Source: Escherichia phage A7_1. Taken from it: a stretch of 64,000 bases of DNA. The position numbers and the translations under genes are program-made. The notes under the pieces were generated by a model that was not told the origin of the DNA, did no database searches, and was given only the letters and a program-made list of their open reading frames with translations. Numbering within the stretch: position 1 is the stretch's first letter; each line of letters starts with the position of its first letter. Location: the sequence record OP795442. One strand, given 5' to 3'. This document shows, in pieces, positions 34,218 through 52,902 of this stretch.

Positions 34218-35393
34218 TCAAAACGGAATATCGTCGTCAAAATCCATATCATCTACAGACATATTTACATGTCCTTCAATATCAGGGGTAGGTGAATCTT
34301 CTGCTGACGGAGTTAACTGCGGTTCCGGCTCAGGTTTCTTTTCCTCTTGCTTAGGAGTTGAAGCACCGTTACGGATCTTATCTTCCAATTGACAGATGAA
34401 TCGGAAATTCTCTTCAGTCTTAGCAATAAAGGTTTCGATATTGTCACGACCCCAACGGGCAGAAAGAATGCCACACTGGCCTAAACGAGCACCGAAAGAG
34501 TAATCATCCATAGATTTAAACTCTTCACGCAGTTTTGCTTTGATCGAATCCATCGCTGCAAGAACTTGTTCTACGATCACACCCTGATTTGCAATAGTTT
34601 CATCAGGGAACATTGCATCGGTAATAGACAGTGCATTACCTAAACGAATAGGTAGATCATCTTTACCTTTACCTGAACGTGATCCTGTTCCAGTACTTGC
34701 ACCTTTTGGACCGTAAGCTTTAAAGCCTGTAACCGTACCATCATCTGAACGAACACCTGCAATACGACCACCTTCTGTAATCTGACCCGCCTGTTCATCA
34801 GTGAGGTTTACAGTAACTTCTGTGCCGTCTTCCAGCTTAACAACTACCTTATTGCCTTCAATAGATGTGATATCACCATAAATCTTCTTAGCTGCACCAC
34901 CAGACGGCTTTTGCTGCTGTTGGGAACCACTTGATTGCTGCTGTTTCTGACGAGGCTCACGAGCACCGGATGCGTCAGTAATTTTGATACGTGCTTTCTT
35001 ACCTTCTGTAGAAGAACCTTGACTACCATCTTCTTTGGTATAGGTCTTGATAACAACAGGTAAACGAATTTTCATACCCTCTTTAAGATCAGTGTAACCA
35101 CCTTCAGGATTTTTAATCTGGAACTGATTCTCATACTTCAGGTTTTTAACTTCACCCTCACCAAAAGAAATCCATGCTTGATCTTCACCTTCTTTAAGAA
35201 GAACCGCATAGCGGTGGGTATTGTTAATGCTTTTCTGCTGACCAGTATTCTTGTCTTTGAAGGTAGTCACTCGTGGGCTACCATCTTCATTAATACGTTT
35301 GATCATGATACGTTCAATCGTACCTGCTGCAATGTTTACTGTGGTATCGGAAACAGCATCGTATACAGCATTGATAACTTTAACTTCAGACAT
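34218..35393 (-). CDS. single-stranded DNA-binding protein (SSB-like, acidic C-terminal tail)
   Basis: 391 aa; Gly/Ser/Gln-rich linker; C-terminus ...DDMDFDDDIPF matches the bacterial SSB tail motif (DDDIPF). Confidence 0.6.
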   Translation of the reverse strand: MSEVKVINAVYDAVSDTTVNIAAGTIERIMIKRINEDGSPRVTTFKDKNTGQQKSINNTHRYAVLLKEGEDQAWISFGEGEVKNLKYENQFQIKNPEGGYTDLKEGMKIRLPVVIKTYTKEDGSQGSSTEGKKARIKITDASGAREPRQKQQQSSGSQQQQKPSGGAAKKIYGDITSIEGNKVVVKLEDGTEVTVNLTDEQAGQITEGGRIAGVRSDDGTVTGFKAYGPKGASTGTGSRSGKGKDDLPIRLGNALSITDAMFPDETIANQGVIVEQVLAAMDSIKAKLREEFKSMDDYSFGARLGQCGILSARWGRDNIETFIAKTEENFRFICQLEDKIRNGASTPKQEEKKPEPEPQLTPSAEDSPTPDIEGHVNMSVDDMDFDDDIPF

Positions 35394-35476
35394 TTAAATC
35401 TCCTTTAACTATTGAACACACCACTTAAGGCCGAGAAACTATATTACAACTAACTTATTTGAATTGCAAATAACTT

Positions 35477-35857
35477 TTAGAGATAAACTCGCTTAACTTT
35501 TTCATGAACATTATCAAACAAAGTGTTGATCATCTGCAAGTCTTTAATAAGTTCTTCCGTAAATTGTTCTTCTTTGTGAGCAAACACACGAGAACGGTCA
35601 ATGTTTACGGGATCTGCACTTTGGTCACCAGACAGGTCGAAAATGTCGATACCAATACGAGCACGACCTTTTTCAATCTTATTCTCATCATCAATACCAT
35701 AAACACTCATGATTTGCATTTCACGATCTTCTTCACTGTTTGTGTAAATGATCGTCGTATTCAAATTCTTAACACCATCGTAAATGTGAATGTTACGTGT
35801 CGCAGAGATAGGAATCCAATCAGCAACCAAATAATCTTTACCGTCGAAAATACTCAT
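35477..35857 (-). CDS. hypothetical protein
   Basis: 126 aa ORF in the minus-strand operon; no motif recognised. Confidence 0.5.
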   Translation of the reverse strand: MSIFDGKDYLVADWIPISATRNIHIYDGVKNLNTTIIYTNSEEDREMQIMSVYGIDDENKIEKGRARIGIDIFDLSGDQSADPVNIDRSRVFAHKEEQFTEELIKDLQMINTLFDNVHEKVKRVYL

Positions 35858-35911
35858 CTTCTTTCCTCTTTTGTTTAAGTGGGGCCATTATGCCCCACAC
35901 TTAACTTTCTG

Positions 35912-36499
35912 TCAAGGACGTTTCGGTGGACTAACGACACCTTTTTTAGATAAAGGTAATTCGTCTGCATCTTTTCCACGAAGAGATTCTAGCCACTCAT
36001 CTAAAGACAGGGGTACTTTACCATCACCTTTGGACCATACAGATAAGCAATACAGATCGTATGCAGATGGACCTCGATCACCTTTGTCACCATTCAACCC
36101 TTTTAAACTATCCAGCCAATCCTTCTCATTTAGTGGGATAGCGCCAGGATCTTCTTTACGAAGAACTCTCAGGTATGTTTCATAAGCAGACTCTCCACGG
36201 GGACCAATTGGACCAGGTAAACCTTGCGGTCCCTTTGCATACTCAAGACACTTAGAATCTAAATATGCAGACTTTGAACCATCATTAACCACTGAAACTT
36301 TATACAATGACCAAGCCAACAGAACTATCCAACAAGCAAACAATGCAAGCGGGTAAGGGATCATTGAAGTAAAGAATGACAGGGCTAAAATTACAACCTT
36401 GTTCTTGTGATCACGACGGAAAGCGATGATCACAGGGGCTAACCAGATAGCAAAGATAACCCACGCAGATAAGATAAACAACCAACTAATGTATTCCAT
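35912..36499 (-). CDS. membrane protein with collagen / fiber-like SAY...WL-SLKG modules
   Basis: 195 aa; two N-terminal hydrophobic helices; two copies of G(P/E)SAY...WL(D/E)SL(K/R)G plus short Gly-X-Y stretches, the same module as in the 7003-10803 fiber protein. Confidence 0.6.
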   Translation of the reverse strand: MEYISWLFILSAWVIFAIWLAPVIIAFRRDHKNKVVILALSFFTSMIPYPLALFACWIVLLAWSLYKVSVVNDGSKSAYLDSKCLEYAKGPQGLPGPIGPRGESAYETYLRVLRKEDPGAIPLNEKDWLDSLKGLNGDKGDRGPSAYDLYCLSVWSKGDGKVPLSLDEWLESLRGKDADELPLSKKGVVSPPKRP

Positions 36500-36687
36500 T
36501 AAGCCTCCTCAGTATCGTCTTTAAAGTAATCTAACATCCAACTCTCTACAGGTTTCGCATAGTAACCTGTTCGCCCTTTCTTTTGGAACTCCATAACAAT
36601 TTCATTTGCAATACTTTTTGTGATTGCGATCCCGATTAGTGCTCCACCAGGACCCATTACTGCGTGTGAACTAAAAACATTACTCAT
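36499..36687 (-). CDS. hypothetical small protein
   Basis: 62 aa; stop overlaps the start of the downstream gene. Confidence 0.4.
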   Translation of the reverse strand: MSNVFSSHAVMGPGGALIGIAITKSIANEIVMEFQKKGRTGYYAKPVESWMLDYFKDDTEEA

Positions 36688-36751
36688 ATTTAACCCCCTT
36701 TATTCTCTCCGCAACCGACAAGAAGAAGTATACATAAAATGATTAACCTCT

Positions 36752-36904
36752 TCAATAGCTACCTCCAAAATATTTTGTAGCCTCTACTGCAAATATTGTC
36801 CCAAGTATGAACCATGTCGCACTTAGCACGTTGAAAGGTAAAAACCTCGATCCTGCAAGAGAAACCATAATAAAAAATGTTACAAAAATCTCTGGAGAAA
36901 TCAT
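36752..36904 (-). CDS. small membrane protein (50 aa, not in ORF track)
   Basis: ATG overlaps the upstream stop (ATGA); translation MISPEIFVTFFIMVSLAGSRFLPFNVLSATWFILGTIFAVEATKYFGGSY is strongly hydrophobic. Confidence 0.3.
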   Translation of the reverse strand: MISPEIFVTFFIMVSLAGSRFLPFNVLSATWFILGTIFAVEATKYFGGSY

Positions 36905-37305
36905 CATTGTTTGATAGCCCCTTTGGCAATCATCTCGTCAAGTTCATCTTCCGCACGACACATGATTTGGTAGATAGTTTCTGGATTGTTTAAGAATTCT
37001 GTGTACTTCTTGATACGACAAACTAAACGTGCACGAACTTTACGCTCACGGGCCACATGATTAAAGTAATGTCCCTTTTGTCTGTAGACCCAAGCATAAT
37101 ATACAGTTTTTGCTCTCTGGCGATCAGAACCTAAACGTTCAGCTAATTCCGTGTACGGGTCATTGTTGGTTGGACCAAACAAAAATATTTCTGCAAAACT
37201 TTCCTTCATGATACGAGCTTCTTCATCCGTAACTCGCGGACATTCTTCAGAACCGTAACGTGGGGTTTTAGTGGCATTTGGCTTCTTAGGGTATACTTTA
37301 CGCAT
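36904..37305 (-). CDS. hypothetical basic protein
   Basis: 133 aa with GAGGAG RBS; Arg/Lys-rich, possible nucleic-acid binding. Confidence 0.5.
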   Translation of the reverse strand: MRKVYPKKPNATKTPRYGSEECPRVTDEEARIMKESFAEIFLFGPTNNDPYTELAERLGSDRQRAKTVYYAWVYRQKGHYFNHVARERKVRARLVCRIKKYTEFLNNPETIYQIMCRAEDELDEMIAKGAIKQ

Positions 37306-37372
37306 TTCATCACTCCTCTAATTAAAACTCTTACTCCCGATGTGAGGAGCCTTTCGGCCCCTCCCTTAAATA

Positions 37373-37981
37373 TCAATCACAACTGCTTGAAGAACTGCTA
37401 CTGCTACTATCCGAAGAATAACTATCGTAAGATGATGAGCTATCATACGAACTTGATCGACTTGAAGAACAGTAAGAACTTGAACTACTTGTACGATCTT
37501 CACTGGATGACATTACGGCAGCATACGTTGCCACACCACCTAAAGCTGCCACCTGAGGATCAACCTGGCTAGTTCCATATCCGTTTGGAGAGTCGCTCAT
37601 TTTACGTGGCGCTGCCCGACGTGCCTGATCAATATATTGTCGCTTTGCCTTCGGTGGTAATTTCTTACCTTGAGCATAAGACGGCAGTTCAACACCCTTC
37701 AGTTGTTCATCCAAAGGTTTCGGCGGCGTAGCCTGTGATTTTGGTCGTTCAACAGAGATATCAACAACCTTCATCGTCTTATCTTTGATGTTTAACCCAA
37801 CCAATACCTCATTTTCTTTTAATGGTTCTTCCAGATCGCGTGTTTCAACTGGACCGAATTTAACGCTTTCAGTTTCCTGACGCTGTTCGGCCTGCTTTGC
37901 AATATACTTGTCGATCGCCGCAGTTTCTACTTCCAGCGGAATAAACAGTGATTTTACCCAAGCAACAAACTTCTTGATCAT
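37373..37981 (-). CDS. hypothetical protein with Ser-rich C-terminal tail
   Basis: 202 aa; last about 50 residues are almost entirely Ser with Tyr/Asp/Cys (...SSSSSYCSSSRSSSYDSSSSYDSYSSDSSSSSSSSSCD). Confidence 0.5.
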   Translation of the reverse strand: MIKKFVAWVKSLFIPLEVETAAIDKYIAKQAEQRQETESVKFGPVETRDLEEPLKENEVLVGLNIKDKTMKVVDISVERPKSQATPPKPLDEQLKGVELPSYAQGKKLPPKAKRQYIDQARRAAPRKMSDSPNGYGTSQVDPQVAALGGVATYAAVMSSSEDRTSSSSSYCSSSRSSSYDSSSSYDSYSSDSSSSSSSSSCD

Positions 37982-39104: not shown

Positions 39105-39112
39105 GGTGACTC

Positions 39113-39552: not shown

Positions 39553-39573
39553 TTAATTATCCTCTCTGCCAGT

Positions 39574-39840: not shown

Positions 39841-39863
39841 TATATTATCCTCTTCGTTTCAAG

Positions 39864-40130
39864 TTAGATATAGTCTACACCAGCTTGTTCCAACAAGTCA
39901 AGTCTCAATTTAAGTTCTTTTTCACGATAATCGGAAACAAGTTTATCCTTTTTCTTTTCTTCTTCCTCAAACTGTTCGAGAGGAAGAATACGAATAATGT
40001 GTTCTGCCTTCATGTAGGACGTTGAACCAATAAGCTGAACATTACCATTTGGTAACAATCGGCCCTTGATCACCCGATAACGAGGGAACAAGTCATATTT
40101 AACAATCGCGGTAACTGCTAGATTACTCAT
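39864..40130 (-). CDS. hypothetical protein
   Basis: 88 aa; Glu/Lys-rich helical C-terminus. Confidence 0.45.
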   Translation of the reverse strand: MSNLAVTAIVKYDLFPRYRVIKGRLLPNGNVQLIGSTSYMKAEHIIRILPLEQFEEEEKKKDKLVSDYREKELKLRLDLLEQAGVDYI

Positions 40131-40500
40131 GTGTATTCTCCATATCGCGAATTCGATCTTCTACCCAACCACGACGATAAATGTTGAGGTAAGATTTACC
40201 TTTTGAACCATGATGGGCATATTCGTCAAAATCAAAATCGAAAGGTGTCTCGGTGTTAAGACCTGCATCAAAGAATTGATTCTTCATTTCGAATTGCACT
40301 TTCATATCTGGATCATTTTTACCTAAAAATGAGGACAAATTAAAACAAAGGCCAGCACCTCGGTAAAAAGCCCCATCTTTTGGTGCACCGATATCTAACC
40401 ATTTTTTATATTCTCGGTAGAAATTCAGAAGTTGCGGACTGCTTTTCATTTTGTTCTCCTCATTTGTTTTGATAGGACTACTATAACATAGTCCTATCAA
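40123..40500 (-). CDS. hypothetical protein (paralog of 50204-50500)
   Basis: Shares WLD.GAP...GLC and FxDAGLN.EFPFD motifs with ORF 50204-50500. Likely true start is ATG 40449 after AGGAGAA (MKSSPQ...); a palindrome lies at 40471-40498. Confidence 0.5.
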   Translation of the reverse strand: MIGLCYSSPIKTNEENKMKSSPQLLNFYREYKKWLDIGAPKDGAFYRGAGLCFNLSSFLGKNDPDMKVQFEMKNQFFDAGLNTETPFDFDFDEYAHHGSKGKSYLNIYRRGWVEDRIRDMENTHE

Positions 40501-40582
40501 CTTGTATACTATTTAATTAAAGATTTTATGAATACTTGGTAGGACCCTTCTTTAAATACTCATCTGGATAATAAAAATCATC

Positions 40583-40960
40583 CTATACTCCAAATGTGGA
40601 TTTGATTTCAGCAATAACCTCATGCACATTGTTTTCGTTTACTTCAAATGTGTAGGACGTTGGTTTAAGGAACGTCTGAGGTGAAACATTAACAAAGAAT
40701 TCAAATTCATCATCAAAAATTTCAAAGTATTTTCCCGGTGTTGATTCTTGACTTTTGAAAACAGTACCATCTTCCATAGTAACAGAAGAAACAGATTTTT
40801 CACCAAGGGTGTATGTTTTTAACTCATCAACAACGAAACTAGGACCGTGACGACGTAGTATTTCAACCATAGTTCGGTTGGCCCCGCAAATACCTGTCCG
40901 CTTAATAAATAACTCTTCACACCGAGGATTGAGAATATAAGTTTTTCCTACTTGCATCAT
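40583..40960 (-). CDS. tandem paralog family member 3
   Basis: 125 aa; shares MxxGKTYxLN, HGPxFVV, EDGxxG and C-terminal IKSTFxx with the two adjacent ORFs. Confidence 0.55.
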   Translation of the reverse strand: MMQVGKTYILNPRCEELFIKRTGICGANRTMVEILRRHGPSFVVDELKTYTLGEKSVSSVTMEDGTVFKSQESTPGKYFEIFDDEFEFFVNVSPQTFLKPTSYTFEVNENNVHEVIAEIKSTFGV

Positions 40961-40970
40961 AACAACCCCC

Positions 40971-41330
40971 TTAGGATAAGTTAAATGTGGATTTGATCAG
41001 GTCGATAGTTTCTTGTGCGTTTTGCTCAGATACTGACACCTGGATAATTTTAAGATCACTGACCTCTTCGAAGTATTTGAACTCAGATTCACGAAGTTCA
41101 AAGTACATTGCCCCACAGCCCACACTGAATGAATCACACCCTACAGCACCATCTTCTGTTGTGATGTTATTAACATACTCATCACCTTCGATCATACTCA
41201 TGTTATTAACAATAAATCGCGGCCCGTGCTCATCCAGAAAAGAAACAATCTCGTGATTGTAACTTGGGTCAGCCTTAATAAATTCTTCCACGAATTTTGG
41301 ATTAAGTTTATAAGTTTTACCTACTTCCAT
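40971..41330 (-). CDS. tandem paralog family member 2
   Basis: 119 aa; same conserved blocks as 40583-40960 and 41342-41716. Confidence 0.55.
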   Translation of the reverse strand: MEVGKTYKLNPKFVEEFIKADPSYNHEIVSFLDEHGPRFIVNNMSMIEGDEYVNNITTEDGAVGCDSFSVGCGAMYFELRESEFKYFEEVSDLKIIQVSVSEQNAQETIDLIKSTFNLS

Positions 41331-41341: not shown

Positions 41342-41716
41342 TTACGCCAGGTTAAAGGTAGCTTTAATCAAATCTAAAGTTTCTTGTGCATTACTACGAG
41401 AGACGGCAACCTGAATAATAACAGGGTCTTCATCTTCCCCGACTTCTTTGAAGAAGGGAAATTCACTCTCTGCAAGTTCAAAGTATACACACTTGTTACC
41501 TTCGCAGTCGTGAAAAACGTCACTACCTAAAGTACCATCTTCAAATATGACATTGTTAACATATGCAACATTATCATAGAAGTGGGTGGTGTTGACAACA
41601 AATTTAGGACCGTGCTTATAAATAAGGTCAACCAATTCTTGATTGTAGCTAGGGTCCATATTGATAAAAGCTTTTTCTAAGTCTTTATTAAGAATGTAAG
41701 TTTTTCCGATTTCCAT
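41342..41716 (-). CDS. tandem paralog family member 1
   Basis: 124 aa; same conserved blocks (MEIGKTYILN...HGPKFVV...EDGTLG...LIKATFNLA). Confidence 0.55.
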   Translation of the reverse strand: MEIGKTYILNKDLEKAFINMDPSYNQELVDLIYKHGPKFVVNTTHFYDNVAYVNNVIFEDGTLGSDVFHDCEGNKCVYFELAESEFPFFKEVGEDEDPVIIQVAVSRSNAQETLDLIKATFNLA

Positions 41717-43282: not shown

Positions 43283-45937
43283 CTAATGGCACGCCCCCCA
43301 GTTCATCCCTGTGAGGTATTCTCCAGTTATCATCACTGGTGATTTCATCATCTTAGCTGCTTGTTCGACACAACGAACAACCATCTCTCCTACAGGGCAG
43401 TATGTAATAGTGAAGATACCATTTTCATCAGGATCACACTTAAACTTCCCTTCTTTCACACAATGACCATCTAAGACCATCTTCTTAGCCAAGCAAGCTT
43501 CTACAAATTTTTTCGCGTCAGCTTCGTTGTCAAAGGTCCAGGTCTTCTTGAACTTGTGTGGCACTTCAAGCTGGTATTCATCATGATAGTAAATGATACG
43601 GCGAACACCTTCATCATACCAACCTTTCTTAACCAACTGCCAGTGCAGGAGGATACCTACCAAGTCAAACAGTGCAGCACCACCATTCTGCTGATAAGCA
43701 TTAAGCAATGAGTGTTTGGAACGAGTGTAGATCTTACGTCCATCAAGACCGTAGATGAATCGCTTACCGTTAGCTTCCCAAAACTTCTCTAGTGCTTCTT
43801 TACGACCTTTCAAGCCGATGTTGCTATCCCAGAATGCGTCGATTACTGCCTGGGCCTTCTCAAGAGTGATCCCCAGCATTGATGCAATCTTCGCTGCCTG
43901 TGCCCCGTACATAATTCCGTATGTCACACCTTTACCTTCACCACGAGAAACCTTCTTCCCTGCCGCTTTGGTATACGCTTCTGCGTTTCGGGAGTGAGCA
44001 TCTCCAGATTCCATGATACGAAGATAAGCGCCACCATCGAAATCATACGCGCCCCATGCCGCGATCATACCTTCCAAGTTTGAACCGTCGATACCTACCT
44101 GATATTTACCCTCGGAGGCTCTAAACAGTTCACGCATCTCTTTACCGAGAAGAACTTTCTCATCCGGCTTAGGTACGTTTGCTACGATCGTATGCTTACG
44201 ACGACCTGTGTTAGTTATTCCACTATAACGGGCCGGAAGTTTACCGTCAACCCGTAGACGTGGATGGTTAAGCCATCCGGTATCAACCTTCTCTTCTTTC
44301 AGTGGGTCAAGAACAGATCGTCGGTTACGTAAAGACAGCCATTTAACAATCTGTTTAGCCATTTCACCATCTACTCGCTCAAGGTTAGGGCAAAGACCCT
44401 GCTGATCCTTAAGTTGTGGAGATGTTGGTAATGCACGGGCTTTCTTCCTGAAGAACTTATACATCTTCTCTTTATCTTGCCACTGCTTACCACTGATACC
44501 TAAACTTTTCAGAATCAGATCGCGATATTCAGTCTGGTCAAGATCATCAATATATTGACGAACAATGATATCGACTTCGTTATCGGGACGTTGTTTCTTA
44601 AACTGGTCCTTCGTCGCATCTTTAGTTCGCCACAATGTTGGGACCCAACCAGCATCACGAATAAGGAATTTTTTAACGTCATCCTGATTACCAATACGCA
44701 TCGGGATCATAATGTCCGGCATCTTTTGTTCTTTGATATCCATCAAAGCACGAGCCATATCTTCCGGCGGCAAAGGAACAAGCCCTTGCTGCTTAACGTT
44801 TTGTGCACGGATAAAATCACCCATTTTGGATTCATCTTCTACACCGTGTTCAACACAATACTTGATCGCGGCGGCAGTAAGAGATCCGTCAGCCTTAAAC
44901 GGCTTACTTGGTGCACCTTTAAACTCTAATGCTTCCCAATTGATATTATAACCTAACTTCTCTAACCATTTCCAACCTGTACCGGAAAGAGATCCATCAC
45001 CCTTGAAAGGCTTAGATGGGAATGTCGGTTGTGCTGATTTCGACATTTCTTTCTTCGGTAACTTAGGTTCAACCTCTAACTCAATGTCTGTCATCATCTT
45101 ATCGATACGATCACGGAGCTTGAGTGCTTTTTCTTCATCAAATGAAACACCCTGAATCTCTTGCTCAATCATCAGGTAGTCGGTCAGCATACCTCGACGC
45201 AGGGCATTCTTCCAGTTGATCATTTTAAACTTCTTCTGATCTTTGTCTGTTTCATCCTTAAACATGAAGCGTTTATCATCTGGCATGGATTCACAAGAGA
45301 TCTCTTTCATCAGAGCATCCCACACCATTTCGTTGATAATTACGTCTTCAATAATACGATCGCAATATTTCCAAAGTGGAAGGCCACGCCAATCTTCAAT
45401 CGCCACTTTCTGGTTGGCTACTCGCATACCCCAAGCTTCAAGCCCGTGAGGGCCTACAGGCTTCATTTTACCTGTGACTGGGTTCTTTACCATCTCGGGA
45501 CAACCACGAGGCAGAGGGCGATCTGGATACAATGTACGGGACATTGAAAGTGTATCGAAGATGTTTACTTGTTTACCATTAATCGTACCCATGCAACCAG
45601 GGTCTGCAAACATATCGTAAGTTGTTCCAAGCATCTTCTTAAACAACTGGAGGTCGTAGCCGAAGATGTTGTGGATAGCAATTGCTTTAGGCTCTGTGAC
45701 AAACCACTCGTTTAATTCCTCAATGGTCCGAATCTTAAAGTTTTTACCTTTAGATTGGATAAATTTAACAGCTTGATCGTAACCTTCCCGCTGGGGATCA
45801 AGAAAGATGTTCCAGTTATCTTTTTTATACTCTTTAAACAAGACGCAGTGAATCAGATCAACCTCTGTCAATAGACCATTCGCTTCCGCATCTCCAATAA
45901 ATAAGCCTTTCATTTTTTCTCCTTCTTCAAGCTCCAA
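43283..45937 (-). CDS. DNA polymerase, family A (T7 gp5 / Pol I-like) with 3'-5' exonuclease
   Basis: 884 aa; exo I motif FIGDAEANG (D.E) at N-terminus; motif B RGEGKGVTYGIMYGAQAAK and motif C YYHDEYQ. Confidence 0.9.
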   Translation of the reverse strand: MELEEGEKMKGLFIGDAEANGLLTEVDLIHCVLFKEYKKDNWNIFLDPQREGYDQAVKFIQSKGKNFKIRTIEELNEWFVTEPKAIAIHNIFGYDLQLFKKMLGTTYDMFADPGCMGTINGKQVNIFDTLSMSRTLYPDRPLPRGCPEMVKNPVTGKMKPVGPHGLEAWGMRVANQKVAIEDWRGLPLWKYCDRIIEDVIINEMVWDALMKEISCESMPDDKRFMFKDETDKDQKKFKMINWKNALRRGMLTDYLMIEQEIQGVSFDEEKALKLRDRIDKMMTDIELEVEPKLPKKEMSKSAQPTFPSKPFKGDGSLSGTGWKWLEKLGYNINWEALEFKGAPSKPFKADGSLTAAAIKYCVEHGVEDESKMGDFIRAQNVKQQGLVPLPPEDMARALMDIKEQKMPDIMIPMRIGNQDDVKKFLIRDAGWVPTLWRTKDATKDQFKKQRPDNEVDIIVRQYIDDLDQTEYRDLILKSLGISGKQWQDKEKMYKFFRKKARALPTSPQLKDQQGLCPNLERVDGEMAKQIVKWLSLRNRRSVLDPLKEEKVDTGWLNHPRLRVDGKLPARYSGITNTGRRKHTIVANVPKPDEKVLLGKEMRELFRASEGKYQVGIDGSNLEGMIAAWGAYDFDGGAYLRIMESGDAHSRNAEAYTKAAGKKVSRGEGKGVTYGIMYGAQAAKIASMLGITLEKAQAVIDAFWDSNIGLKGRKEALEKFWEANGKRFIYGLDGRKIYTRSKHSLLNAYQQNGGAALFDLVGILLHWQLVKKGWYDEGVRRIIYYHDEYQLEVPHKFKKTWTFDNEADAKKFVEACLAKKMVLDGHCVKEGKFKCDPDENGIFTITYCPVGEMVVRCVEQAAKMMKSPVMITGEYLTGMNWGACH

Positions 45938-46078: not shown

Positions 46079-46354
46079 TCAGTCTTCTATTACCTCAAAT
46101 TCACCACTAAAAGCTACGATAGTTTCACCGTAGCCCATGTTCAATCGGGCAGTTGTAGGTTTGCCATTCCTAGATAGATAGTACACCCTCGCTTCGTAAA
46201 TGTCACCAACTTTTACACCGTAAGCCTGTAGGTCTTTGTTATTGATATCTTTATTTTCAGCATTGATTATTCGAACACTGCTGATCTCTGAGTATACAGA
46301 ATTATCTTTCATCAGTATTTTTCCTCTGGACGGAAAACTCCACGGCAAGCCCAC
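46079..46354 (-). CDS. hypothetical protein
   Basis: 91 aa ORF; overlaps the upstream gene by about 40 nt, so the start may be at an internal Met. Confidence 0.4.
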   Translation of the reverse strand: MGLPWSFPSRGKILMKDNSVYSEISSVRIINAENKDINNKDLQAYGVKVGDIYEARVYYLSRNGKPTTARLNMGYGETIVAFSGEFEVIED

Positions 46355-46596
46355 ATACTTGCTTCTTTGAGGCGATCTTTAGCCTTAGATAAGCAATCAG
46401 ATGCAAAAAGCACGGAATCTAGATCCCCTTCGGGAATCGAAGAGTCATTAGCCAGTCGATTATATTCCTCAATAATCTCGTCTTCTAATGCTTTTAAAAT
46501 AAGACCTAAACGAATTTCAGCATCTTTAATGGCATTCACCTTACCGATTTTTTCATCGGTGTGTGGTTTGTAGCCCTTAATGTCATCAATAGCCAT
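46312..46596 (-). CDS. hypothetical protein
   Basis: 94 aa helical ORF; ATGA overlap with the upstream gene. Confidence 0.45.
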   Translation of the reverse strand: MAIDDIKGYKPHTDEKIGKVNAIKDAEIRLGLILKALEDEIIEEYNRLANDSSIPEGDLDSVLFASDCLSKAKDRLKEASMWACRGVFRPEEKY

Positions 46597-47090
46597 TACC
46601 AGTCCTCCTCTGTTTGTTCATACTCTGAAGGGGTGATGAAGTAATTCTGACCCCGCTTGCACTGGTTGAAAGTCCCAACATACCAAGTACCGATATCCAT
46701 GTTGATGAAAGTTTCTTCTTGAACAAAGATCAGATCAGCAAGATTATTGTCTGATCGTTGGGTCGCTAACAAAATATGCTCAAAATCTGCCAACGTCATG
46801 TTATAAGAGAAACCATCTTCGTCCTCCATAACCGCAACAACAGAACTGCGCCCCTGAGTGAATTGACGAAACTGTAAACGTAAATGACGATGCTCATGTT
46901 CATTCGTCTTTACCTTTTTCCGATTTTCAAAGTATTCTTCGGAATAATACGGATGCTTTAACTTTAGCTTTTCAATCTCTTCTAAAGAAAGAGCGTCCTT
47001 GTCCCAACCAGTGAACCATTTACCGTTATGATCAAATACCGCAGGGTATTTACGCTTACTTAAATCTTTAAACATCATAATCCTCCCCAT
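46596..47090 (-). CDS. hypothetical protein
   Basis: 164 aa; His-rich segment (EHEHRH). Confidence 0.5.
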   Translation of the reverse strand: MGRIMMFKDLSKRKYPAVFDHNGKWFTGWDKDALSLEEIEKLKLKHPYYSEEYFENRKKVKTNEHEHRHLRLQFRQFTQGRSSVVAVMEDEDGFSYNMTLADFEHILLATQRSDNNLADLIFVQEETFINMDIGTWYVGTFNQCKRGQNYFITPSEYEQTEEDW

Positions 47091-48614: not shown

Positions 48615-48626
48615 TTATTTGTCCTC

Positions 48627-49343
48627 TTATTTGTTGTATTGATAAATTGCTTCAGCTAAGCCCCGTGGGGTTAGTGACCGGATCATCTTAGTTCTTGCTG
48701 ACTTACCTCCTAACTTATTCTGCTGATCTGACCAACCAGGTGCAACAGGAACCGGAGAGGTTTTTGGAATTATAAACCCATTTCCTGTCCAAAGTCCAGT
48801 CTTTTTCGGATAAGCATCCCTTGGTTTAATGTATTGAGGAAAATAAGGGTTAACATCATTTACCGGAAGGTAACCGCCATATTCCCAAGGGTTAAAATAT
48901 ACAGTAGGTTTTCGCCATTGTCCAGCTAAAACACTTACTGGGTTTTCAATCATATACGGACAATCGAAAACAAATTCAGCAAGCCAAGCTGCAATCTTCG
49001 CAGTTCTTACCGCCTTGACCTGGAAGAAAGGATCTTTTGCTTTCTTCGATGCAAAGTGACGAGAACCACTAACAGCCATATCGGTACATGGAGGATAGGC
49101 AAGGATCAGGTCCGGCGCAGGCAATCCTAAGTTCTCTACATTCTCCATCCATTCAATATCGATAAAGGCGTTAACGTAAGTGATGTTGGGATGAATTTCC
49201 TTTACGCCTTCATAATCCCCGTGATCAGCATCGTCATAGTTGAAGCAGTAGCATTTGTGCCCTGCCTTCGCCCAGGGAAGAACATCAATCCCTGAACCAG
49301 AAAAGAGACTCCAGATAATCTTTTTATTCATCGTAGCATCCAA
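48627..49343 (-). CDS. C5-methyltransferase-like protein (minimal catalytic core, no obvious target-recognition domain)
   Basis: 238 aa; motif I LFSGSG (F.G.G), motif IV PPCTDMAVSG (catalytic Pro-Cys), motif VI IENP (ENV-like), QWR after it; order matches the C5-MTase catalytic domain. Confidence 0.55.
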   Translation of the reverse strand: MDATMNKKIIWSLFSGSGIDVLPWAKAGHKCYCFNYDDADHGDYEGVKEIHPNITYVNAFIDIEWMENVENLGLPAPDLILAYPPCTDMAVSGSRHFASKKAKDPFFQVKAVRTAKIAAWLAEFVFDCPYMIENPVSVLAGQWRKPTVYFNPWEYGGYLPVNDVNPYFPQYIKPRDAYPKKTGLWTGNGFIIPKTSPVPVAPGWSDQQNKLGGKSARTKMIRSLTPRGLAEAIYQYNK

Positions 49344-49636
49344 ATAGTGGTTAATTTACAAATACACCAGAAAATCCCGATCAGTGTAGCCAGAGTAATA
49401 ACACAAGTCAATACTATAGGTAAGAATATCGTCATAATCACTGCAAAAACTGAAATACCTATGCTTGCAATAAGATCCGGCACGAAATAGTGAAATGGAT
49501 CTCTTGCCTTTTTAATGTTGTCCCATGTTATTACTACGGAGCTAAGGACGAGCCAGAATAAAAAGTACAAAATGCAAGGAAATAAAGTCATGTGTGACTT
49601 AACCATATCAAACCACATGTTGTAGAATTCAATCAT
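49328..49636 (-). CDS. small membrane protein
   Basis: 102 aa, three hydrophobic segments. Confidence 0.45.
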   Translation of the reverse strand: MIEFYNMWFDMVKSHMTLFPCILYFLFWLVLSSVVITWDNIKKARDPFHYFVPDLIASIGISVFAVIMTIFLPIVLTCVITLATLIGIFWCICKLTTIWMLR

Positions 49637-49956
49637 TCAGTTTTCCTCGGTACAGATGCAATAACAGCCTTTTCGACGAGACATACAATAAATCTCCCAA
49701 TCCCTGCCAAAAGGAGAGCAAAGACTGTAAAAGGCAACCCATAAATAAGAACCAAAATCATCAATCCAAAACAAGCGGAAAACAGGACTTCTGTGCCTAG
49801 CCACATTTTGGAGTAATTGATATAATTATGCCGCAATTTTAAAAACAGTCCAGCAATAGAGCCTACAGAAAATATACCAATCAACCAAGGTGCAGTTACA
49901 AATGAACGACTGAACCCTTCCCAAAAAACAAAAACATTAATGATTGCTTCGATCAT
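49633..49956 (-). CDS. small membrane protein
   Basis: 107 aa, hydrophobic throughout; ATGA overlaps on both sides. Confidence 0.45.
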   Translation of the reverse strand: MIEAIINVFVFWEGFSRSFVTAPWLIGIFSVGSIAGLFLKLRHNYINYSKMWLGTEVLFSACFGLMILVLIYGLPFTVFALLLAGIGRFIVCLVEKAVIASVPRKTE

Positions 49957-50207
49957 AAACCATACCTCGCTTCATATAAGAATTCATCAAGATCTTTACT
50001 GTCGTCGGAACCTTCTACTGTCAACGGCATCAGGTGTTCTTTGAAATAATAGCAAAGATTGCCGGAACTCGTTTCCACTAAACATGTGGTTTTGCAAACC
50101 ATCTTAACTTTCACCGATAGTCCCGCATCTTCATGGCTGTGGACCATTGCAAGACAACCATCATAAAGCTTATCCTCGTAAGGTAAGCAAGGATCTGGAT
50201 TTTTCAT
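49953..50207 (-). CDS. hypothetical Cys-containing protein
   Basis: 84 aa with several Cys residues. Confidence 0.45.
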   Translation of the reverse strand: MKNPDPCLPYEDKLYDGCLAMVHSHEDAGLSVKVKMVCKTTCLVETSSGNLCYYFKEHLMPLTVEGSDDSKDLDEFLYEARYGL

Positions 50208-50500
50208 CGTGAACTTTCCTCCTCCGCATGTTTACGCACCCATTCTACACGGGACGCGTTCAGGTGTTTGTTATCGTCGTAGTGATACGCTTTCCAACCT
50301 TCGTCGAAAGGGAACTCCCAGTTCAGTCCGGCATCGGTAAACTGTTGCTGCATCTCTTTGAGTAACTTATAGTCACACTCTGAAAACTCTTCCAGTGCGT
50401 TACACAGACCGCAGGTCCGATCAAACGTCTCGGAGTGTGGTGCACCAGCGTCAAGCCACTCAGCATAGGCTTTATAGAATGCTTTAAGTTGCTCGCTCAT
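50204..50500 (-). CDS. hypothetical protein (paralog of 40123-40500)
   Basis: 98 aa; shares WLDAGAP...CGLCNAL...FTDAGLNWEFPFDEG with ORF 40123-40500. Confidence 0.5.
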   Translation of the reverse strand: MSEQLKAFYKAYAEWLDAGAPHSETFDRTCGLCNALEEFSECDYKLLKEMQQQFTDAGLNWEFPFDEGWKAYHYDDNKHLNASRVEWVRKHAEEESSR

Positions 50501-50896
50501 TTATTTATCCTCTGCATATGCAATCTTAGTCATGTAGTCAATACAATCATATTGAACATTGTGGCTATTAAAAACAGCCTTGTCTTTGTAAATAACTTGC
50601 CAATAATCAATGCTTTCAATTTCGGAAAGGTATGCAACACACTCCCCTTTTGGATTAATAAGTTCAACTCGATCAGTTTCTCGTAATTTCCAACCAGTAG
50701 GTAACTGAACAGCTTGTTCCTTAAAAATCACAATATCGTCACGGTGACCAGTTGCCCTTTTAAATGCCCGCAGTAATTCTTTGTATTCACGATATTTCAC
50801 ATAAAGGCCGTCCTCTGATTTTTCCATACGGGCTTCATTGATATTGCAATTACCATCCATATCTCCAACCAGGTCGTAACGATATACAGGTTTCAT
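50501..50896 (-). CDS. hypothetical protein
   Basis: 131 aa ORF immediately following the upstream stop. Confidence 0.5.
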   Translation of the reverse strand: MKPVYRYDLVGDMDGNCNINEARMEKSEDGLYVKYREYKELLRAFKRATGHRDDIVIFKEQAVQLPTGWKLRETDRVELINPKGECVAYLSEIESIDYWQVIYKDKAVFNSHNVQYDCIDYMTKIAYAEDK

Positions 50897-51105
50897 TTTT
50901 TAACTTTCTCCTTTTTCTCAGGTTTTACATCGCAAACTTTTTGTTGATAACTGATCGGTGTTACATAGCGCCACGTCTTTTTAAGGTTCTCAACGAGGAT
51001 TCGCATTTGTTCCTCATCAGCACCCCAGCCTGCGGTATGTGCTATTTCATCAACACTCATCTGGCATTTAACGTACCATCTTGTAATTGTCTTCGATTGT
51101 ATCAT
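50893..51105 (-). CDS. hypothetical small protein
   Basis: 70 aa; Lys-rich C-terminus. Confidence 0.4.
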   Translation of the reverse strand: MIQSKTITRWYVKCQMSVDEIAHTAGWGADEEQMRILVENLKKTWRYVTPISYQQKVCDVKPEKKEKVKK

Positions 51106-51132
51106 TATCGTTTCCTTAAGGTCAAGAGATTT

Positions 51133-51429
51133 TTATTTAATACCTAATTCTTTTGCACTGTAAATATCATTACCTTCATAGCCTTTGTAGTAGATCAGGA
51201 TATCTTTGACAATCTCTCCCGTCGGTCCGCTCCGGCGAGTACGTGGTCGCTGTGCATTGACCAAATAAACTTCACCACGAGTATTTATTTTTGTTGTACG
51301 ATGGCCTTCGACAAAGGTCAAAGTTGTATATGCAGGAACCTTAACAAGAACTTCTACCTGGTCACCAGCAGTATTCTGTTGTTCATTTGCCATATCGTCT
51401 TTAACAACAGTCGTCATAAGTTTGGTCAT
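51133..51429 (-). CDS. hypothetical protein
   Basis: 98 aa ORF; no motif recognised. Confidence 0.45.
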   Translation of the reverse strand: MTKLMTTVVKDDMANEQQNTAGDQVEVLVKVPAYTTLTFVEGHRTTKINTRGEVYLVNAQRPRTRRSGPTGEIVKDILIYYKGYEGNDIYSAKELGIK

Positions 51430-51431
51430 TT

Positions 51432-51695
51432 TTATTCTCCTTTGTTCAATGTGGATACGAATTCGATATAAGATTCTGCATTTCGTTTATGATAAATCTG
51501 AGGATAGCTGTCGGTTACTTTGCCGTATTTGATGTATCGCTCAAGCATACCGACAACACCACCAATGGAATGCACAACAACGCCTTCTTCACCGACAAAG
51601 GTAACCACTTCTACGAATGGACTGTTATCATAAGAACGATTTACAATCAGATCGCCGACTTCAAATTCGATTTTATCATTTTGTGAGTAGTGCAT
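51432..51695 (-). CDS. hypothetical protein
   Basis: 87 aa, first gene downstream of the terminator at 51754-51782. Confidence 0.45.
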   Translation of the reverse strand: MHYSQNDKIEFEVGDLIVNRSYDNSPFVEVVTFVGEEGVVVHSIGGVVGMLERYIKYGKVTDSYPQIYHKRNAESYIEFVSTLNKGE

Positions 51696-51753
51696 TTGTT
51701 TCTCCTTTCTGTTTGGTATGGGAGAAGTATAGGGGAGTTTAGGAGGGGTGTCA

Positions 51754-51782
51754 ATAGAAAAACCGCCCGAAGGCGGTTTATT
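51754..51782 (-). terminator. rho-independent terminator after primase-helicase (minus strand)
   Basis: Minus strand reads AAACCGCC-TTCG-GGCGGTTT followed by TTCTATT; downstream of the stop at 51793. Confidence 0.65.
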
Positions 51783-51792
51783 TTGAAAAATA

Positions 51793-52902
51793 TCAGAAAG
51801 GTGCTTCGTCGTCGAAATCTACATCTTCAACTTCCGGTACATCAGGAATGTCACCTGCGGATTCAACGATACTCTGTTGTTCCCACGTAGGTTCCTCTGA
51901 AGGTTGGTCCATTTCTTCCATAACCTTCTTGATCTCTTCCTCTTGCTCACGTAGGAAGTTATCATCCGGCTCAGGAATATCTTCCTCTTTAATATCTGAA
52001 CGAGTGAGATCACTGTTTTGTTCAGACAAAGGTTGAATCTCTGCGGCCTTAGGTTTGAAATCTGGAGAACGATGATCATCTTCTGGATGAGCGGCATACC
52101 ACTCACGAAGAGTTTCATAAGGACTCTCTAGGAAGCCCTCTGGCGGTTCCAGATAATCACCTGTATCAATGTCATAGAACACAGGGAATTTACCAGCACG
52201 ACCGTGTTTACGGTCATCCAGGATAACAAAGTAAGAAGTGTTACGTTGTTTCATCGGAAGCTCTGGATCTTTGTTACGTTCAATACCCCACATATAGTAA
52301 GTGTTTCGCATCATTGCACGGCTACCAGCAAACTGCGCCGACTGGACTTGACCACCAAATTCATGAGGCTTACCAGATTCAGGCTTGTTAAGGTGACAGA
52401 AGCAATAATAAGTAAAGCCAAGCTCTTTTGCCAGTTTGGAGATCTCATCCGAGAATCGTTCCAGTTCCTGGTTAGCTTCAGAAGCACTCATACCTTGCAC
52501 AAGACGAGTGATCGGGTCAATAAAGATATCTTCACAACCTTCTACGATCACTGCGTGACGGATAGCACCTTTCAGTTCATCCCATACTGCACGACCATAG
52601 TTGTTATAATAGATAACACTATCACCAACTTCATCAGTAGCTTTGATCAGTTCTTCTTGCTTAAAGTAGCCACGTTGACCTTCAAATACTTCATTACCCC
52701 AAATGTCACGGAAAGTTCCATCTTCTTGAGGAATCATTACCTTTTCTGCGTTAACAAAGTCTTTATGATAACGCTTACCTGCGATCTTCTTACAAGTGAT
52801 CTCGTTCTCTTCTTCAAACTTAAACACCGCAGCTTTTGACTTCTCAATACCCGTGATGTGTTCAACCATTTGGTTAAGAAGTTCAGACTTGCCCATTTTC
52901 AC
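51793..52902 (-). CDS. primase-helicase, 3' exon (gp4 / DnaB-like helicase domain; proposed exon starts near 52899)
   Basis: Begins (V)KMGKSELL, the second half of a Walker A; CHLNKPESGKPHEFGG resembles T7 gp4 CHLKNPDKGKAHEEG; acidic tail ...VDFDDEAPF. The annotated GTG start is probably intron sequence. Confidence 0.75.
   Translation of the reverse strand: MKMGKSELLNQMVEHITGIEKSKAAVFKFEEENEITCKKIAGKRYHKDFVNAEKVMIPQEDGTFRDIWGNEVFEGQRGYFKQEELIKATDEVGDSVIYYNNYGRAVWDELKGAIRHAVIVEGCEDIFIDPITRLVQGMSASEANQELERFSDEISKLAKELGFTYYCFCHLNKPESGKPHEFGGQVQSAQFAGSRAMMRNTYYMWGIERNKDPELPMKQRNTSYFVILDDRKHGRAGKFPVFYDIDTGDYLEPPEGFLESPYETLREWYAAHPEDDHRSPDFKPKAAEIQPLSEQNSDLTRSDIKEEDIPEPDDNFLREQEEEIKKVMEEMDQPSEEPTWEQQSIVESAGDIPDVPEVEDVDFDDEAPF

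What the first reader, a model, noticed from the sequence alone, without database searches (positions are those of the whole stretch)
34218..52902. Matching acidic C-terminal tails on the SSB-like protein and the helicase
Seen in sequence: the SSB-like protein ends ...DDMDFDDDIPF and the helicase exon ends ...VEDVDFDDEAPF. Established knowledge: bacterial SSB uses the DDDIPF tail as a protein-interaction hub, and in T7 the acidic tails of gp2.5 and gp4 both bind the polymerase. Inference: both replisome components here probably use a shared tail-docking site, possibly also on host SSB-interacting proteins.
Basis: partly seen in the sequence, partly recalled or inferred. Interest (0 to 1): 0.45.

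Follow-up and report, generated by a model that had tools for sequence, protein, structure and literature searches.

The report
Matching docking tails on phage replisome proteins
In this E. coli phage, the SSB-like protein and the primase-helicase both end in a conserved acidic peptide finishing in Pro-Phe; the first copies the last nine residues of the host SSB, which suggests, without proving, that the two proteins share docking sites as their counterparts do in phage T7.

Summary
ORF 34218-35393(-) ends ...DDMDFDDDIPF. The helicase exon 51793-52902(-) ends ...VEDVDFDDEAPF.

A scoring matrix built from the last 8 residues of SSB-like homologues ranks the helicase second of 385 window ORFs (+19.3 bits; next best -9.7). 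Only 3 of 3360 permutations of its tail score as well, so the match depends on residue position, not just acidity.

Both tails are conserved. 79 of 97 SSB-like homologues end D-[FWY]-D-[DE]-D-[IV]-P-F. 97 of 114 full-length helicase homologues end in Phe, 38 of them in acidic ...PF. The pairing persists in eight Vequintavirinae phages, down to about 25% identity (Bas52: ...SFDDDIPF and ...GFEDDETPF).

The last nine residues of the SSB-like protein equal those of E. coli SSB. The closest solved relatives of the helicase and polymerase are T7 gp4 and gp5, whose replisome uses exactly such paired tails.

The SSB-like protein has no Pfam SSB match, only an OB fold. Its Bas52 orthologue was described in a 2026 preprint as an SSB-like trigger of the DRT10 defence with this tip. 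The helicase match appears not to have been reported.

The shared docking site is inferred, not shown. This is a new variant of a known kind, of moderate interest.

The parts
34218..35393 (-). Gene for the 391-aa SSB-like protein (phrog_4477). Its predicted parts are an N-terminal OB-type beta domain (residues 1-140), a small beta domain (169-227), a helical domain (247-341), a disordered Pro/Glu-rich linker (345-371) and the acidic tip.
34221..34247 (-). Codons for the tip MDFDDDIPF of the SSB-like protein. It is identical to the last nine residues of E. coli SSB.
   Evidence: E. coli SSB tail (1eqq ...PPMDFDDDIPF) and PMC3632105. 79 of 97 homologues keep D-[FWY]-D-[DE]-D-[IV]-P-F.
51793..52902 (-). 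Exon 2 of the T7 gp4-type primase-helicase: the SF4 helicase domain from the second half of Walker A, plus a C-terminal extension.
   Evidence: DnaB_C match and phrog_239 'DNA primase/helicase'. Colinear with the uninterrupted A73 gene. T7 gp4 is the closest solved structure, E 2e-20.
51796..52143 (-). 116-residue acidic C-terminal extension of the helicase (net charge -29). The last 28 residues are predicted to be disordered.
   Evidence: Composition. AlphaFold2 model: pLDDT 44-49 over residues 342-369, with one confident helix at 314-331.
51796..51822 (-). Codons for the helicase tip VDFDDEAPF. It matches the SSB-like tip at 7 of 9 positions.
   Evidence: PSSM rank 2 of 385 ORFs, and 3 of 3360 permutations score as well. 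Conserved as acidic ...PF in relatives.
52903..53652 (-). 750-nt insertion that splits the helicase Walker A codons. It is probably a group I intron.
   Evidence: Absent from A73 and LTH01. RF00028 match at 24.9 bits, E 6e-4, below the gathering score. The flanking exon ends in U and the insertion ends in G.
53027..53524 (-). HNH homing endonuclease ORF inside the insertion.
   Evidence: Pfam HNH_3 and HTH matches, phrog_59 at E 4e-43. Annotated as an HNH homing endonuclease in phage A5-4.
53653..54588 (-). Exon 1 of the primase-helicase: the TOPRIM primase part up to GEGYFIGAG.
   Evidence: Toprim matches and phrog_239. Spliced reading frame reconstructed.
43283..45937 (-). Family A DNA polymerase. 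By analogy with T7 it is the candidate receptor for both tails. This role is inferred.
   Evidence: Pfam DNA_pol_A; T7 gp5 is the best PDB match at E 8e-16. K and R align with T7 R590 and R591 of the front basic patch, and Bas52 has KK there. K587 and K589 lie in an insertion found only in T7.

Best explanation
Both proteins end in a disordered acidic tether capped by the same kind of C-terminal docking peptide: hydrophobic or aromatic, then acidic x3, then x, Pro, Phe with a free carboxylate.

Shown:
- The two tips match position by position, and both are conserved across the phage subfamily.
- The SSB-like tip is identical to the host SSB tip.
- The helicase and polymerase are of the T7 type.

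Inferred:
- As with T7 gp2.5 and gp4, the two tips compete for the same pocket or pockets, each a hydrophobic hole for Pro-Phe beside a basic rim. The most likely location is the phage family A polymerase.
- This arrangement would let the hexameric helicase hold and exchange polymerases, and let the SSB-like protein hand the template over to the polymerase.
- Because the SSB-like tip copies the host's exactly, it can probably also plug into host proteins that bind the SSB tail, such as ExoI/SbcB, chi, PriA and RecQ.
- The helicase tip is a looser version (Ala, Pro or Cys instead of Ile at position -3) and would bind such pockets more weakly, if at all.
For: - Tails present, and a match that depends on residue position.
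- Conservation of the SSB-like tip: 79 of 97 homologues, plus 103 of 140 further representatives that end in PF.
- Conservation of the helicase tip: 97 of 114 full-length homologues end in Phe. 38 end in PF with a mean net charge of -4.9 over the last 12 residues, against -1.4 for the other Phe-ending tails.
- The pair is present in eight phages: the window phage, A73, SSBI34, CR3, PcCB7V, F5M1E, ChuuTotoro and Bas52.
- In 82 kb of Bas52, only these two proteins and NrdB have an acidic tail ending in an aromatic residue. The NrdB tail binds RNR subunit R1 (from my own knowledge), so it serves as a positive control for this kind of peptide.
- T7-type replisome.
- Both tips lie in regions predicted to be disordered.
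- Identity with the E. coli SSB tip: and PMC3632105.
- T7 mechanism: PMC12593628, PMC12339929.
- Two of the four T7 front-basic-patch positions are K/R in this polymerase and in the Bas52 polymerase.
- The Bas52 orthologue has a functional link to host ExoI through DRT10 (bioRxiv 10.64898/2026.04.29.721553).
Against: - No binding was tested, and no docking model could be built.
- The helicase tip is much more variable than the SSB-like tip, which points to different constraints and perhaps different partners.
- Only half of the PF-type helicase tails have an aromatic residue at positions -6 to -8.
- 15 of 97 SSB-like homologues extend beyond ...IPF by a conserved 15 residues. That is hard to reconcile with a pocket that reads the free carboxylate.
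- In Aeromonas phage 2L372D, the SSB-like protein has that extension and the primase-helicase ends ...GFEIEM, so the pairing is not universal.
- The basic patch of the polymerase is only partly conserved.
- ssDNA binding by the 391-aa protein has not been shown.
Confidence: 0.5

Rival explanations
1. The tails share a chemistry but have different partners. The SSB-like tip is a host mimic that recruits or titrates host proteins that bind the SSB tail, such as ExoI/SbcB, chi, PriA, RecQ, RecO and DnaG. The helicase tip is simply the ancestral gp4-type tether to the phage polymerase. The resemblance arises because both kinds of pocket favour an acidic peptide with a C-terminal Phe, and no site is shared.
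For: - The SSB-like tip is nearly invariant and equals the host tip at 9 of 9 residues.
- The helicase tip varies at positions -3 and -7.
- A terminal Phe is found across the whole gp4-like family, including relatives with tails that are not acidic (97 of 114). It therefore predates the SSB-like form.
- The Bas52 orthologue is linked to host ExoI through DRT10.
Against: - In the closest clade the helicase tail matches the SSB-like tail far better than mere 'acidic plus Phe' requires: D-F/W-D-D-D/E-A-P-F, +19 to +23 bits, with a permutation test of 3 in 3360.
- In T7, the two tails are known to use the same basic patch on the polymerase (PMC12339929, PMC12593628).
Confidence: 0.3
2. The tails act mainly on the DNA-binding sites themselves. 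Each acidic tip competes with ssDNA for a basic cleft. This could be its own cleft, as shown for T7 gp2.5 and proposed for E. coli SSB. Alternatively, the helicase tip could occupy the OB cleft of the SSB-like protein, regulating its loading and release just behind the helicase.
For: - For T7, the title of Marintcheva et al. [quoted passage not shown]
- A weak interaction of the E. coli SSB tail with its own DNA-binding site is reported in the text quoted.
- Both tips here sit on long flexible acidic linkers.
Against: - Autoinhibition needs acidity but does not explain the strict conservation of Pro-Phe at the very end, nor the exact identity with the host tip.
- The AlphaFold2 model does not dock the tip back onto the OB domain with any confidence (tip pLDDT 50-59).
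Confidence: 0.12
3. The resemblance is chance, or generic low-complexity acidity at two C-termini.
For: Acidic C-termini are common in DNA-binding proteins. A third tail of this type in phage A73 (A73_235...VDEDIPF) is not conserved in Certrevirus homologues, so isolated matches of this kind can arise.
Against: - Rank 2 of 385 ORFs, with a gap of 29 bits to the next ORF.
- Only 3 of 3360 permutations reach the observed score.
- Both tails are conserved in orthologues down to 25-28% identity.
Confidence: 0.02

Closest known systems
Phage T7 replisome: acidic C-terminal tails of gp2.5 (SSB) and gp4 (primase-helicase), both ending in Phe, docking on basic patches of gp5 polymerase
   Same: - The helicase and polymerase here have T7 gp4 and gp5 as their closest solved relatives.
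- Both the ssDNA-binding-type protein and the helicase carry disordered acidic tails ending in Phe.
- A terminal Phe is found across the gp4-like family (97 of 114).
   Different: - The tips here are of the bacterial SSB type (...DDDIPF...DDEAPF) rather than T7's ...DTDF for gp4 (both T7 tails end in Phe).
- The helicase extension is 116 residues. The T7 gp4 tail is about 17 residues (from my own knowledge).
- The SSB-like protein is a 391-aa, three-domain protein with no detectable similarity to gp2.5.
- The N-terminal Cys4 zinc-binding domain of gp4 is absent.
- Only part of the front basic patch of gp5 is conserved.
E. coli SSB C-terminal tip (SSB-Ct, MDFDDDIPF), the hub for chi, ExoI, RecQ, RecO, PriA, DnaG and others
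   Same: The last nine residues of the SSB-like protein are identical to it. It also follows a disordered linker after an OB fold (PMC3632105).
   Different: - The OB domain is not a Pfam SSB domain. tblastn with the E. coli SSB OB domain finds nothing with E below 0.3 in the window or in the A73 genome.
- Extra beta and helical domains are present.
- The second copy of the motif sits on a helicase, and has Ala instead of Ile at position -3.
Bas52_0087 (QXV84166.1) of Escherichia phage RudolfGeigy, the SSB-like trigger of the DRT10/UG17 reverse-transcriptase defence (bioRxiv 10.64898/2026.04.29.721553)
   Same: It is a full-length homologue: 28% identity, E 3e-21, with the same domain order and tip (...FDDDIPF). 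The escape position D252 aligns with D245, which is invariant in the family. The preprint already points out that the tip resembles that of E. coli SSB.
   Different: In the passages I read, the preprint never uses the word 'primase' and uses 'helicase' once, in a passage I did not see, so it does not appear to mention the helicase tail. I found that Bas52's own primase-helicase, bas52_0075, ends ...GFEDDETPF.
Phage HK620 SSB and Sak4 (PMC5928155)
   Same: The C-terminal hexapeptide of a phage SSB (NDYPPF, similar to DDDIPF) is needed to recruit a phage-encoded partner.
   Different: HK620 SSB is a canonical SSB homologue, and no second protein carrying the same tip was reported.

Membership tests
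Bacterial SSB family (Pfam PF00436) | OB domain recognisable by sequence as PF00436 | tested here: not met
   No SSB match in Pfam at E up to 0.01. The family profile hits E. coli SSB in the PDB only through the tail. tblastn with the E. coli SSB OB domain gives E of 0.8 or worse.
Bacterial SSB family (Pfam PF00436) | OB fold of the ssDNA-binding class | tested here: inconclusive
Bacterial SSB family (Pfam PF00436) | Disordered linker followed by the C-terminal tip D-D-D-I/L-P-F | tested here: met
   The linker at 345-371 has pLDDT below 50. The tip MDFDDDIPF is identical to that of E. coli SSB.
Bacterial SSB family (Pfam PF00436) | Binds ssDNA as a homo-oligomer | not testable with these tools
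   Needs biochemistry. The preprint on Bas52_0087 offers predictions only.
T7 gp4-type primase-helicase | TOPRIM primase fused to an SF4 (DnaB-like) helicase, with sequence similarity to T7 gp4 | tested here: met
   Toprim and DnaB_C matches, phrog_239. PDB 5ikn and 6n7i at E 2e-20, aligned over residues 51-528.
T7 gp4-type primase-helicase | N-terminal Cys4 zinc-binding domain | tested here: not met
   The first 50 residues contain a single Cys, and the alignment to gp4 begins at gp4 residue 83.
T7 gp4-type primase-helicase | Acidic C-terminal tail ending in Phe | tested here: met
   ...VEDVDFDDEAPF. 97 of 114 homologues end in Phe. The tail is predicted to be disordered.
T7 gp4-type primase-helicase | The tail binds basic patches of the cognate polymerase | not testable with these tools
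   Only partial conservation could be checked: K and R align with T7 R590 and R591.
SSB-Ct short linear motif, applied to the helicase tip | Phe at the very C-terminus, preceded by Pro | tested here: met
   ...APF*. 38 homologues end in PF.
SSB-Ct short linear motif, applied to the helicase tip | Ile, Leu or Val at position -3 | tested here: not met
   Ala in the window phage. Among PF-type homologues the residue is P (11), A (8), C (7), E (6) or V (2).
SSB-Ct short linear motif, applied to the helicase tip | Three acidic residues at positions -4 to -6 and an aromatic at -7 | tested here: met
   F-D-D-E in the window phage and W-D-D-D in A73. In Certrevirus phages a Met occupies the position of the aromatic residue.
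Group I intron (for the 'helicase exon') | Match to the Rfam RF00028 covariance model at the gathering score | tested here: inconclusive
   24.9 bits against a gathering score of 50, E 6e-4. The conserved GAAGAUAUAGUC core is aligned.
Group I intron (for the 'helicase exon') | A precise insertion relative to an intron-less allele, U before the 5' splice site, G at the 3' end, and an internal homing endonuclease | tested here: met
   with the HNH ORF. Splicing itself was not shown.

The most novel reading that the evidence does not exclude
The phage replisome displays host-type SSB tips on two scaffolds: the SSB-like protein coating the ssDNA, and six 116-residue acidic arms on the helicase hexamer. 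Together these would capture or titrate the host proteins that bind the SSB tail (ExoI/SbcB, RecQ, PriA, chi, RNase HI and others) at the phage fork. That would protect phage 3' ends and take over host factors. This disturbance of host ssDNA metabolism would then be what defences such as DRT10 detect.
Probability: 0.2. Interest if true: 0.65.

Novelty: new variant of a known kind. Interest (0 to 1): 0.42.

Why it matters
If the two tips share pockets, Vequintavirinae would be a second, independent example of the T7 principle, in which helicase and SSB tails take turns on the polymerase. Here, however, the principle would be written in the sequence language of the host SSB tail, which would tie replisome coupling to hijacking of the host's SSB interaction network.

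The finding also yields a concrete prediction for the experimentally tractable phage Bas52. Its SSB-like protein triggers the DRT10 defence in a way that depends on host ExoI. Its primase-helicase, bas52_0075, carries a related tip (...GFEDDETPF) that may contribute to, or buffer, that trigger.

Finally, it suggests a function for a large family with none assigned: phrog_4477, with at least 209 representative clusters, most ending in ...[IVL]PF.

Tried and rejected
1. Docking the tails onto the polymerase by structure prediction. The two available jobs went on the SSB-like protein and on helicase exon 2.

2. A third protein carrying the tail. A73_235 (phrog_12009, outside the window) ends ...FIVDEDIPF and scores +12 bits. 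Its Certrevirus homologues end ...FFPMKDK, so I treat it as specific to that lineage or as chance.

3. A canonical SSB elsewhere in the genome. None is annotated in A73, and tblastn with the E. coli SSB OB domain finds nothing with E below 0.3 (the query sequence came from memory).

4. Deeper homology of the SSB-like family. A profile search of 1.84 billion representatives found 209 relatives. All ten that I scanned fall in phrog_4477 and none has a Pfam domain, so no link to a characterised SSB family emerged.

5. Conservation of the polymerase basic patch. Only two of the four T7 front-patch residues can be aligned and are basic. The region corresponding to the thioredoxin-binding domain cannot be aligned. 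This evidence is too weak to count for much.

6. A literature search for the ...IPFAPIGLQY... extension found nothing relevant.

7. Covariation between the two tips across phages. No clear co-evolution appears. PcCB7V has W at -7 and V at -3 in its SSB-like tip, while its helicase ends ...DDMDDDVCPF.

Full report
**What the window is.** The window belongs to a phage of the subfamily Vequintavirinae. The polymerase, SSB-like and helicase regions are 94-99% identical in nucleotide sequence to Escherichia phages A73, W70, A5-4, UPEC06 and LTH01. The 391-aa protein is 100% identical to a protein of Escherichia phage A7_1. The replication genes lie on the minus strand. In order of transcription they are a PIF1-like helicase (55923-57281), the primase-helicase (54588 down to 51793), the family A polymerase (45937 down to 43283) and, at the end of the block, the 391-aa gene (35393 down to 34218).

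**Checking the observation.** ORF 34218-35393(-) ends ...NMSVDDMDFDDDIPF, and ORF 51793-52902(-) ends ...PEVEDVDFDDEAPF.
- Of 385 ORFs of at least 40 aa in all six frames, four end in PF. Only these two also have an acidic tail.
- I built a log-odds matrix from the last eight residues of 79 homologues of the SSB-like protein. It scores the SSB-like ORF at +33.7 bits, the helicase ORF at +19.3 and the next ORF at -9.7.
- In the complete genome of A73 the order is the same: +33.7, then +23.1 for a helicase ending ...PDDWDDDAPF, with only three of 907 ORFs above zero.
- Only 3 of the 3360 distinct permutations of DFDDEAPF reach the observed score.

**Is the helicase piece an exon?** Phage A73 has an uninterrupted primase-helicase of 681 aa. 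Relative to it, the window carries a 750-nt insertion between the codons for GAG and VKMGKS of the Walker A motif.
- With the boundaries placed at window 53653|53652 and 52903|52902, the upstream exon ends in U and the insertion ends in G.
- The insertion contains an HNH endonuclease ORF (53027-53524).
- It matches the Rfam group I intron model below the curated threshold (24.9 bits, E 6e-4), with the GAAGAUAUAGUC core aligned.
- A group I intron is therefore likely, although splicing itself is not shown. The spliced product has 681 residues.

**What the two proteins are.**

*The primase-helicase* is of the T7 gp4 type.
- It has Toprim and DnaB_C domain matches and belongs to phrog_239.
- T7 gp4 is its closest solved relative (E 2e-20).
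- It lacks the N-terminal Cys4 zinc-binding domain of gp4.
- After the helicase core it has a 116-residue extension with net charge -29. AlphaFold2 predicts one confident helix there (residues 314-331 of the exon-2 ORF) and a disordered end (pLDDT 44-49 for residues 342-369).

*The polymerase* has T7 gp5 as its closest solved relative (E 8e-16).

*The 391-aa protein* has no Pfam SSB match and belongs to phrog_4477, 'unknown function'.
- Its AlphaFold2 model (mean pLDDT 80) has a beta domain at 1-140, a small beta domain at 169-227, a helical domain at 247-341, disordered linkers, and the tip.
- No canonical SSB is annotated in the related genome A73, and none is detectable there.
- 'SSB-like' is thus a reasonable label based on fold and genomic context, but not an established function.

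**Conservation of the SSB-like tip.**
- Among 97 homologues of the SSB-like protein, down to about 30% identity, 79 end in D-[FWY]-D-[DE]-D-[IV]-P-F.
- A profile search of 1.84 billion representative proteins found 209 relatives. Of the 140 that were new, 103 end in PF. Many are shorter proteins of about 280 aa that share the helical domain and the tip.

**Conservation of the helicase tip.**
- Among 114 full-length homologues of the primase-helicase, 97 end in Phe.
- 38 end in PF, with a mean net charge of -4.9 over the last 12 residues.
- The more distant relatives of about 570 aa end in xF with little acidity, -1.4 on average.
- The terminal Phe therefore looks ancestral to the gp4-like family, as in T7. 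The acidic ...PF form belongs to the clade that includes this phage.

**The pairing across phages.** Both tails occur together in all eight Vequintavirinae phages that I checked.

| Phage | SSB-like protein ends | Primase-helicase ends |
|---|---|---|
| Window phage | ...MDFDDDIPF | ...VDFDDEAPF |
| A73 | ...MDFDDDIPF | ...DDWDDDAPF |
| SSBI34 | ...MDFDEDIPF plus an extension | ...DWDDQPPF |
| CR3 | ...VDFDDDIPF | ...EMDDDCPF |
| PcCB7V | ...MDWDDDVPF | ...MDDDVCPF |
| F5M1E | ...VDFDDDIPF | ...DMDDECPF |
| ChuuTotoro | ...MDFDDDIPF | ...EEDDECPF |
| Bas52 (RudolfGeigy) | ...SFDDDIPF | ...GFEDDETPF |

Bas52's proteins are only 28% and 25.5% identical to those of the window. In 82 kb of Bas52, the only other ORF with an acidic tail ending in an aromatic residue is the ribonucleotide reductase beta subunit. 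Its tail is a known docking peptide (my own knowledge), so it acts as a positive control.

**Comparison with what is known.**
- The last nine residues of E. coli SSB are MDFDDDIPF (PMC3632105; PDB 1eqq), identical to the tip of the SSB-like protein. According to PMC3632105, this tip docks with its terminal Phe in a hydrophobic pocket flanked by basic residues on chi, ExoI, RecQ, RecO and DnaG.
- In T7, the acidic tails of gp4 bind two basic patches on gp5 (PMC12593628), and the gp2.5 tail anchors on the front basic patch (PMC12339929).
- In the polymerase alignment, K and R of the window enzyme (GKRFIYGLDGRK) align with T7 R590 and R591, and Bas52 has KK there. K587 and K589 lie in an insertion found only in T7. 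This is weak support at best.
- A 2026 preprint (bioRxiv 10.64898/2026.04.29.721553) identified Bas52_0087 as an 'SSB-like' protein with two OB folds and a tip FDDDIPF resembling that of E. coli SSB. The protein is required to trigger the DRT10 reverse-transcriptase defence, which host ExoI modulates.
- I verified that Bas52_0087 is a full-length homologue of the window protein (E 3e-21). The escape position D252 aligns with D245, which is invariant in the family.
- The SSB-like nature of this family and its host-like tip are therefore already in the literature. In the passages I read, the matching tip on the primase-helicase is not mentioned.

**Most likely mechanism.** Both proteins carry a flexible acidic tether capped by a docking peptide of the same class.
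- By homology of the replisome to T7, and because the two tips match position by position, the best-supported reading is that they compete for the same pocket or pockets. The phage polymerase is the most likely location.
- This would couple helicase, polymerase and SSB-like protein as in T7.
- Because the SSB-like tip is an exact copy of the host's, it probably also engages host proteins that bind the SSB tail.
- I put this at about 0.5.

**Rivals.**
- The main rival (0.3) is that the partners differ: host proteins for the SSB-like tip, the phage polymerase for the helicase tip. The contrast between an invariant SSB-like tip and a variable helicase tip favours this view.
- A regulatory role through competition with ssDNA for the DNA-binding clefts is possible (0.12).
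- Chance is excluded for practical purposes.

**Evidence that does not fit neatly.**
- Fifteen of 97 SSB-like homologues, and some distant relatives, continue after ...IPF with a conserved peptide, A-P-[IV]-G-L-Q-Y-x-x-H-A-I-Y-x-L. That should block a pocket that reads the free carboxylate, unless the extension is removed.
- In Aeromonas phage 2L372D, the SSB-like protein has this extension and the primase-helicase ends ...GFEIEM. The pairing is therefore not universal outside Vequintavirinae.

**Verdict.** It is a new variant of a known kind: T7-style paired tails written in the sequence language of the host SSB tip, on a non-canonical SSB-like protein. Interest is moderate, raised somewhat by the link to DRT10 and by the direct prediction it makes for Bas52.

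Noticed in passing
Homologues P0007, P0008, P0014, P0015, P0029, P0052, P0054, P0069, P0079, P0082-P0084, P0086, P0087, P0089; L017:18467-19186 (Aeromonas phage 2L372D): A subset of SSB-like homologues does not end at ...DFDDDIPF. They continue with a conserved peptide of about 15 residues, A-P-[IV]-G-L-Q-Y-x-x-H-A-I-Y-x-L (for example ...IPFAPVGLQYPNHAIYVL in Salmonella phage SSBI34). This would bury the terminal Phe. I have no explanation, and nothing relevant turned up in the literature.
   Followed up: partly
window 52903-53652 (-); L003:41848-45250 (phage A73): Mobile insertions differ between sibling phages. The window has a probable group I intron with an HNH endonuclease in the Walker A codons of the helicase and an intact polymerase gene. 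A73, W70 and LTH01 have an intact helicase gene, but their polymerase gene is split around an inserted ORF.
   Followed up: partly
L004:48848-49369 (-) (phage A73, outside the window): A third protein, A73_235 (173 aa, phrog_12009, unknown function), ends ...FIVDEDIPF and scores +12 bits with the tail matrix. The tail is missing from its Certrevirus homologues, which end ...FFPMKDK.
   Followed up: yes
window 46312-46596 (-): This 94-aa protein matches the Pfam Acb2/Tad1 hairpin domain (E 1.4e-16). It is a likely sponge for cyclic-nucleotide immune signals, encoded between the polymerase and helicase genes.
   Followed up: no
window 46596-47090 (-): This 164-aa protein of unknown function (phrog_7983) lies in the replication block and ends in an acidic tail with a terminal aromatic residue, ...EYEQTEEDW.
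   Followed up: no
window 53653-54588 (-), first 50 codons: The primase-helicase lacks the N-terminal Cys4 zinc-binding domain of T7 gp4. There is a single Cys in the first 50 residues, and the alignment to gp4 starts at gp4 residue 83. This raises the question of how priming sites are recognised.
   Followed up: no
window 40583-40960, 40971-41330, 41342-41716 (-); also 40123-40500 and 50204-50500 (-): Three tandem paralogous genes of about 120 aa each begin M-x-[VI]-GKTY-x-LN. A separate pair of paralogues shares the motif ...Y-[RK]-x-Y-x-x-WLD-x-GAP.... None has a Pfam match.
   Followed up: no
window 43283-45937 (-), residues about 310-365 of the polymerase: The long insertion between the exonuclease and polymerase domains contains a repeated motif, PSKPFKGDGSLSGTG and PSKPFKADGSLTAAA. 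The region has no counterpart that can be aligned in T7 gp5.
   Followed up: no
window 55923-57281 (-): A PIF1-like SF1 helicase (Pfam PF05970, E 2.3e-22) is encoded just upstream of the primase-helicase. Its C-terminus has no tail of this type.
   Followed up: no
window 37373-37981 (-) and 35912-36499 (-): Two small proteins have unusual low-complexity parts. One has a C-terminus that is almost pure Ser/Tyr/Asp (...SSSSYCSSSRSSSYDSSSSYDSYSSDSSSSSSSSSCD). The other is a predicted membrane protein with a short collagen-like stretch, GPQGLPGPIGPRGE.
   Followed up: no
L015 (Bas52), record 112822-113910 (-): The class I ribonucleotide reductase beta subunit of Bas52 ends ...DAEEEIWEF. In the 82 kb scanned, it is the only other acidic tail ending in an aromatic residue. 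It is a useful positive control for C-terminal docking peptides.
   Followed up: no
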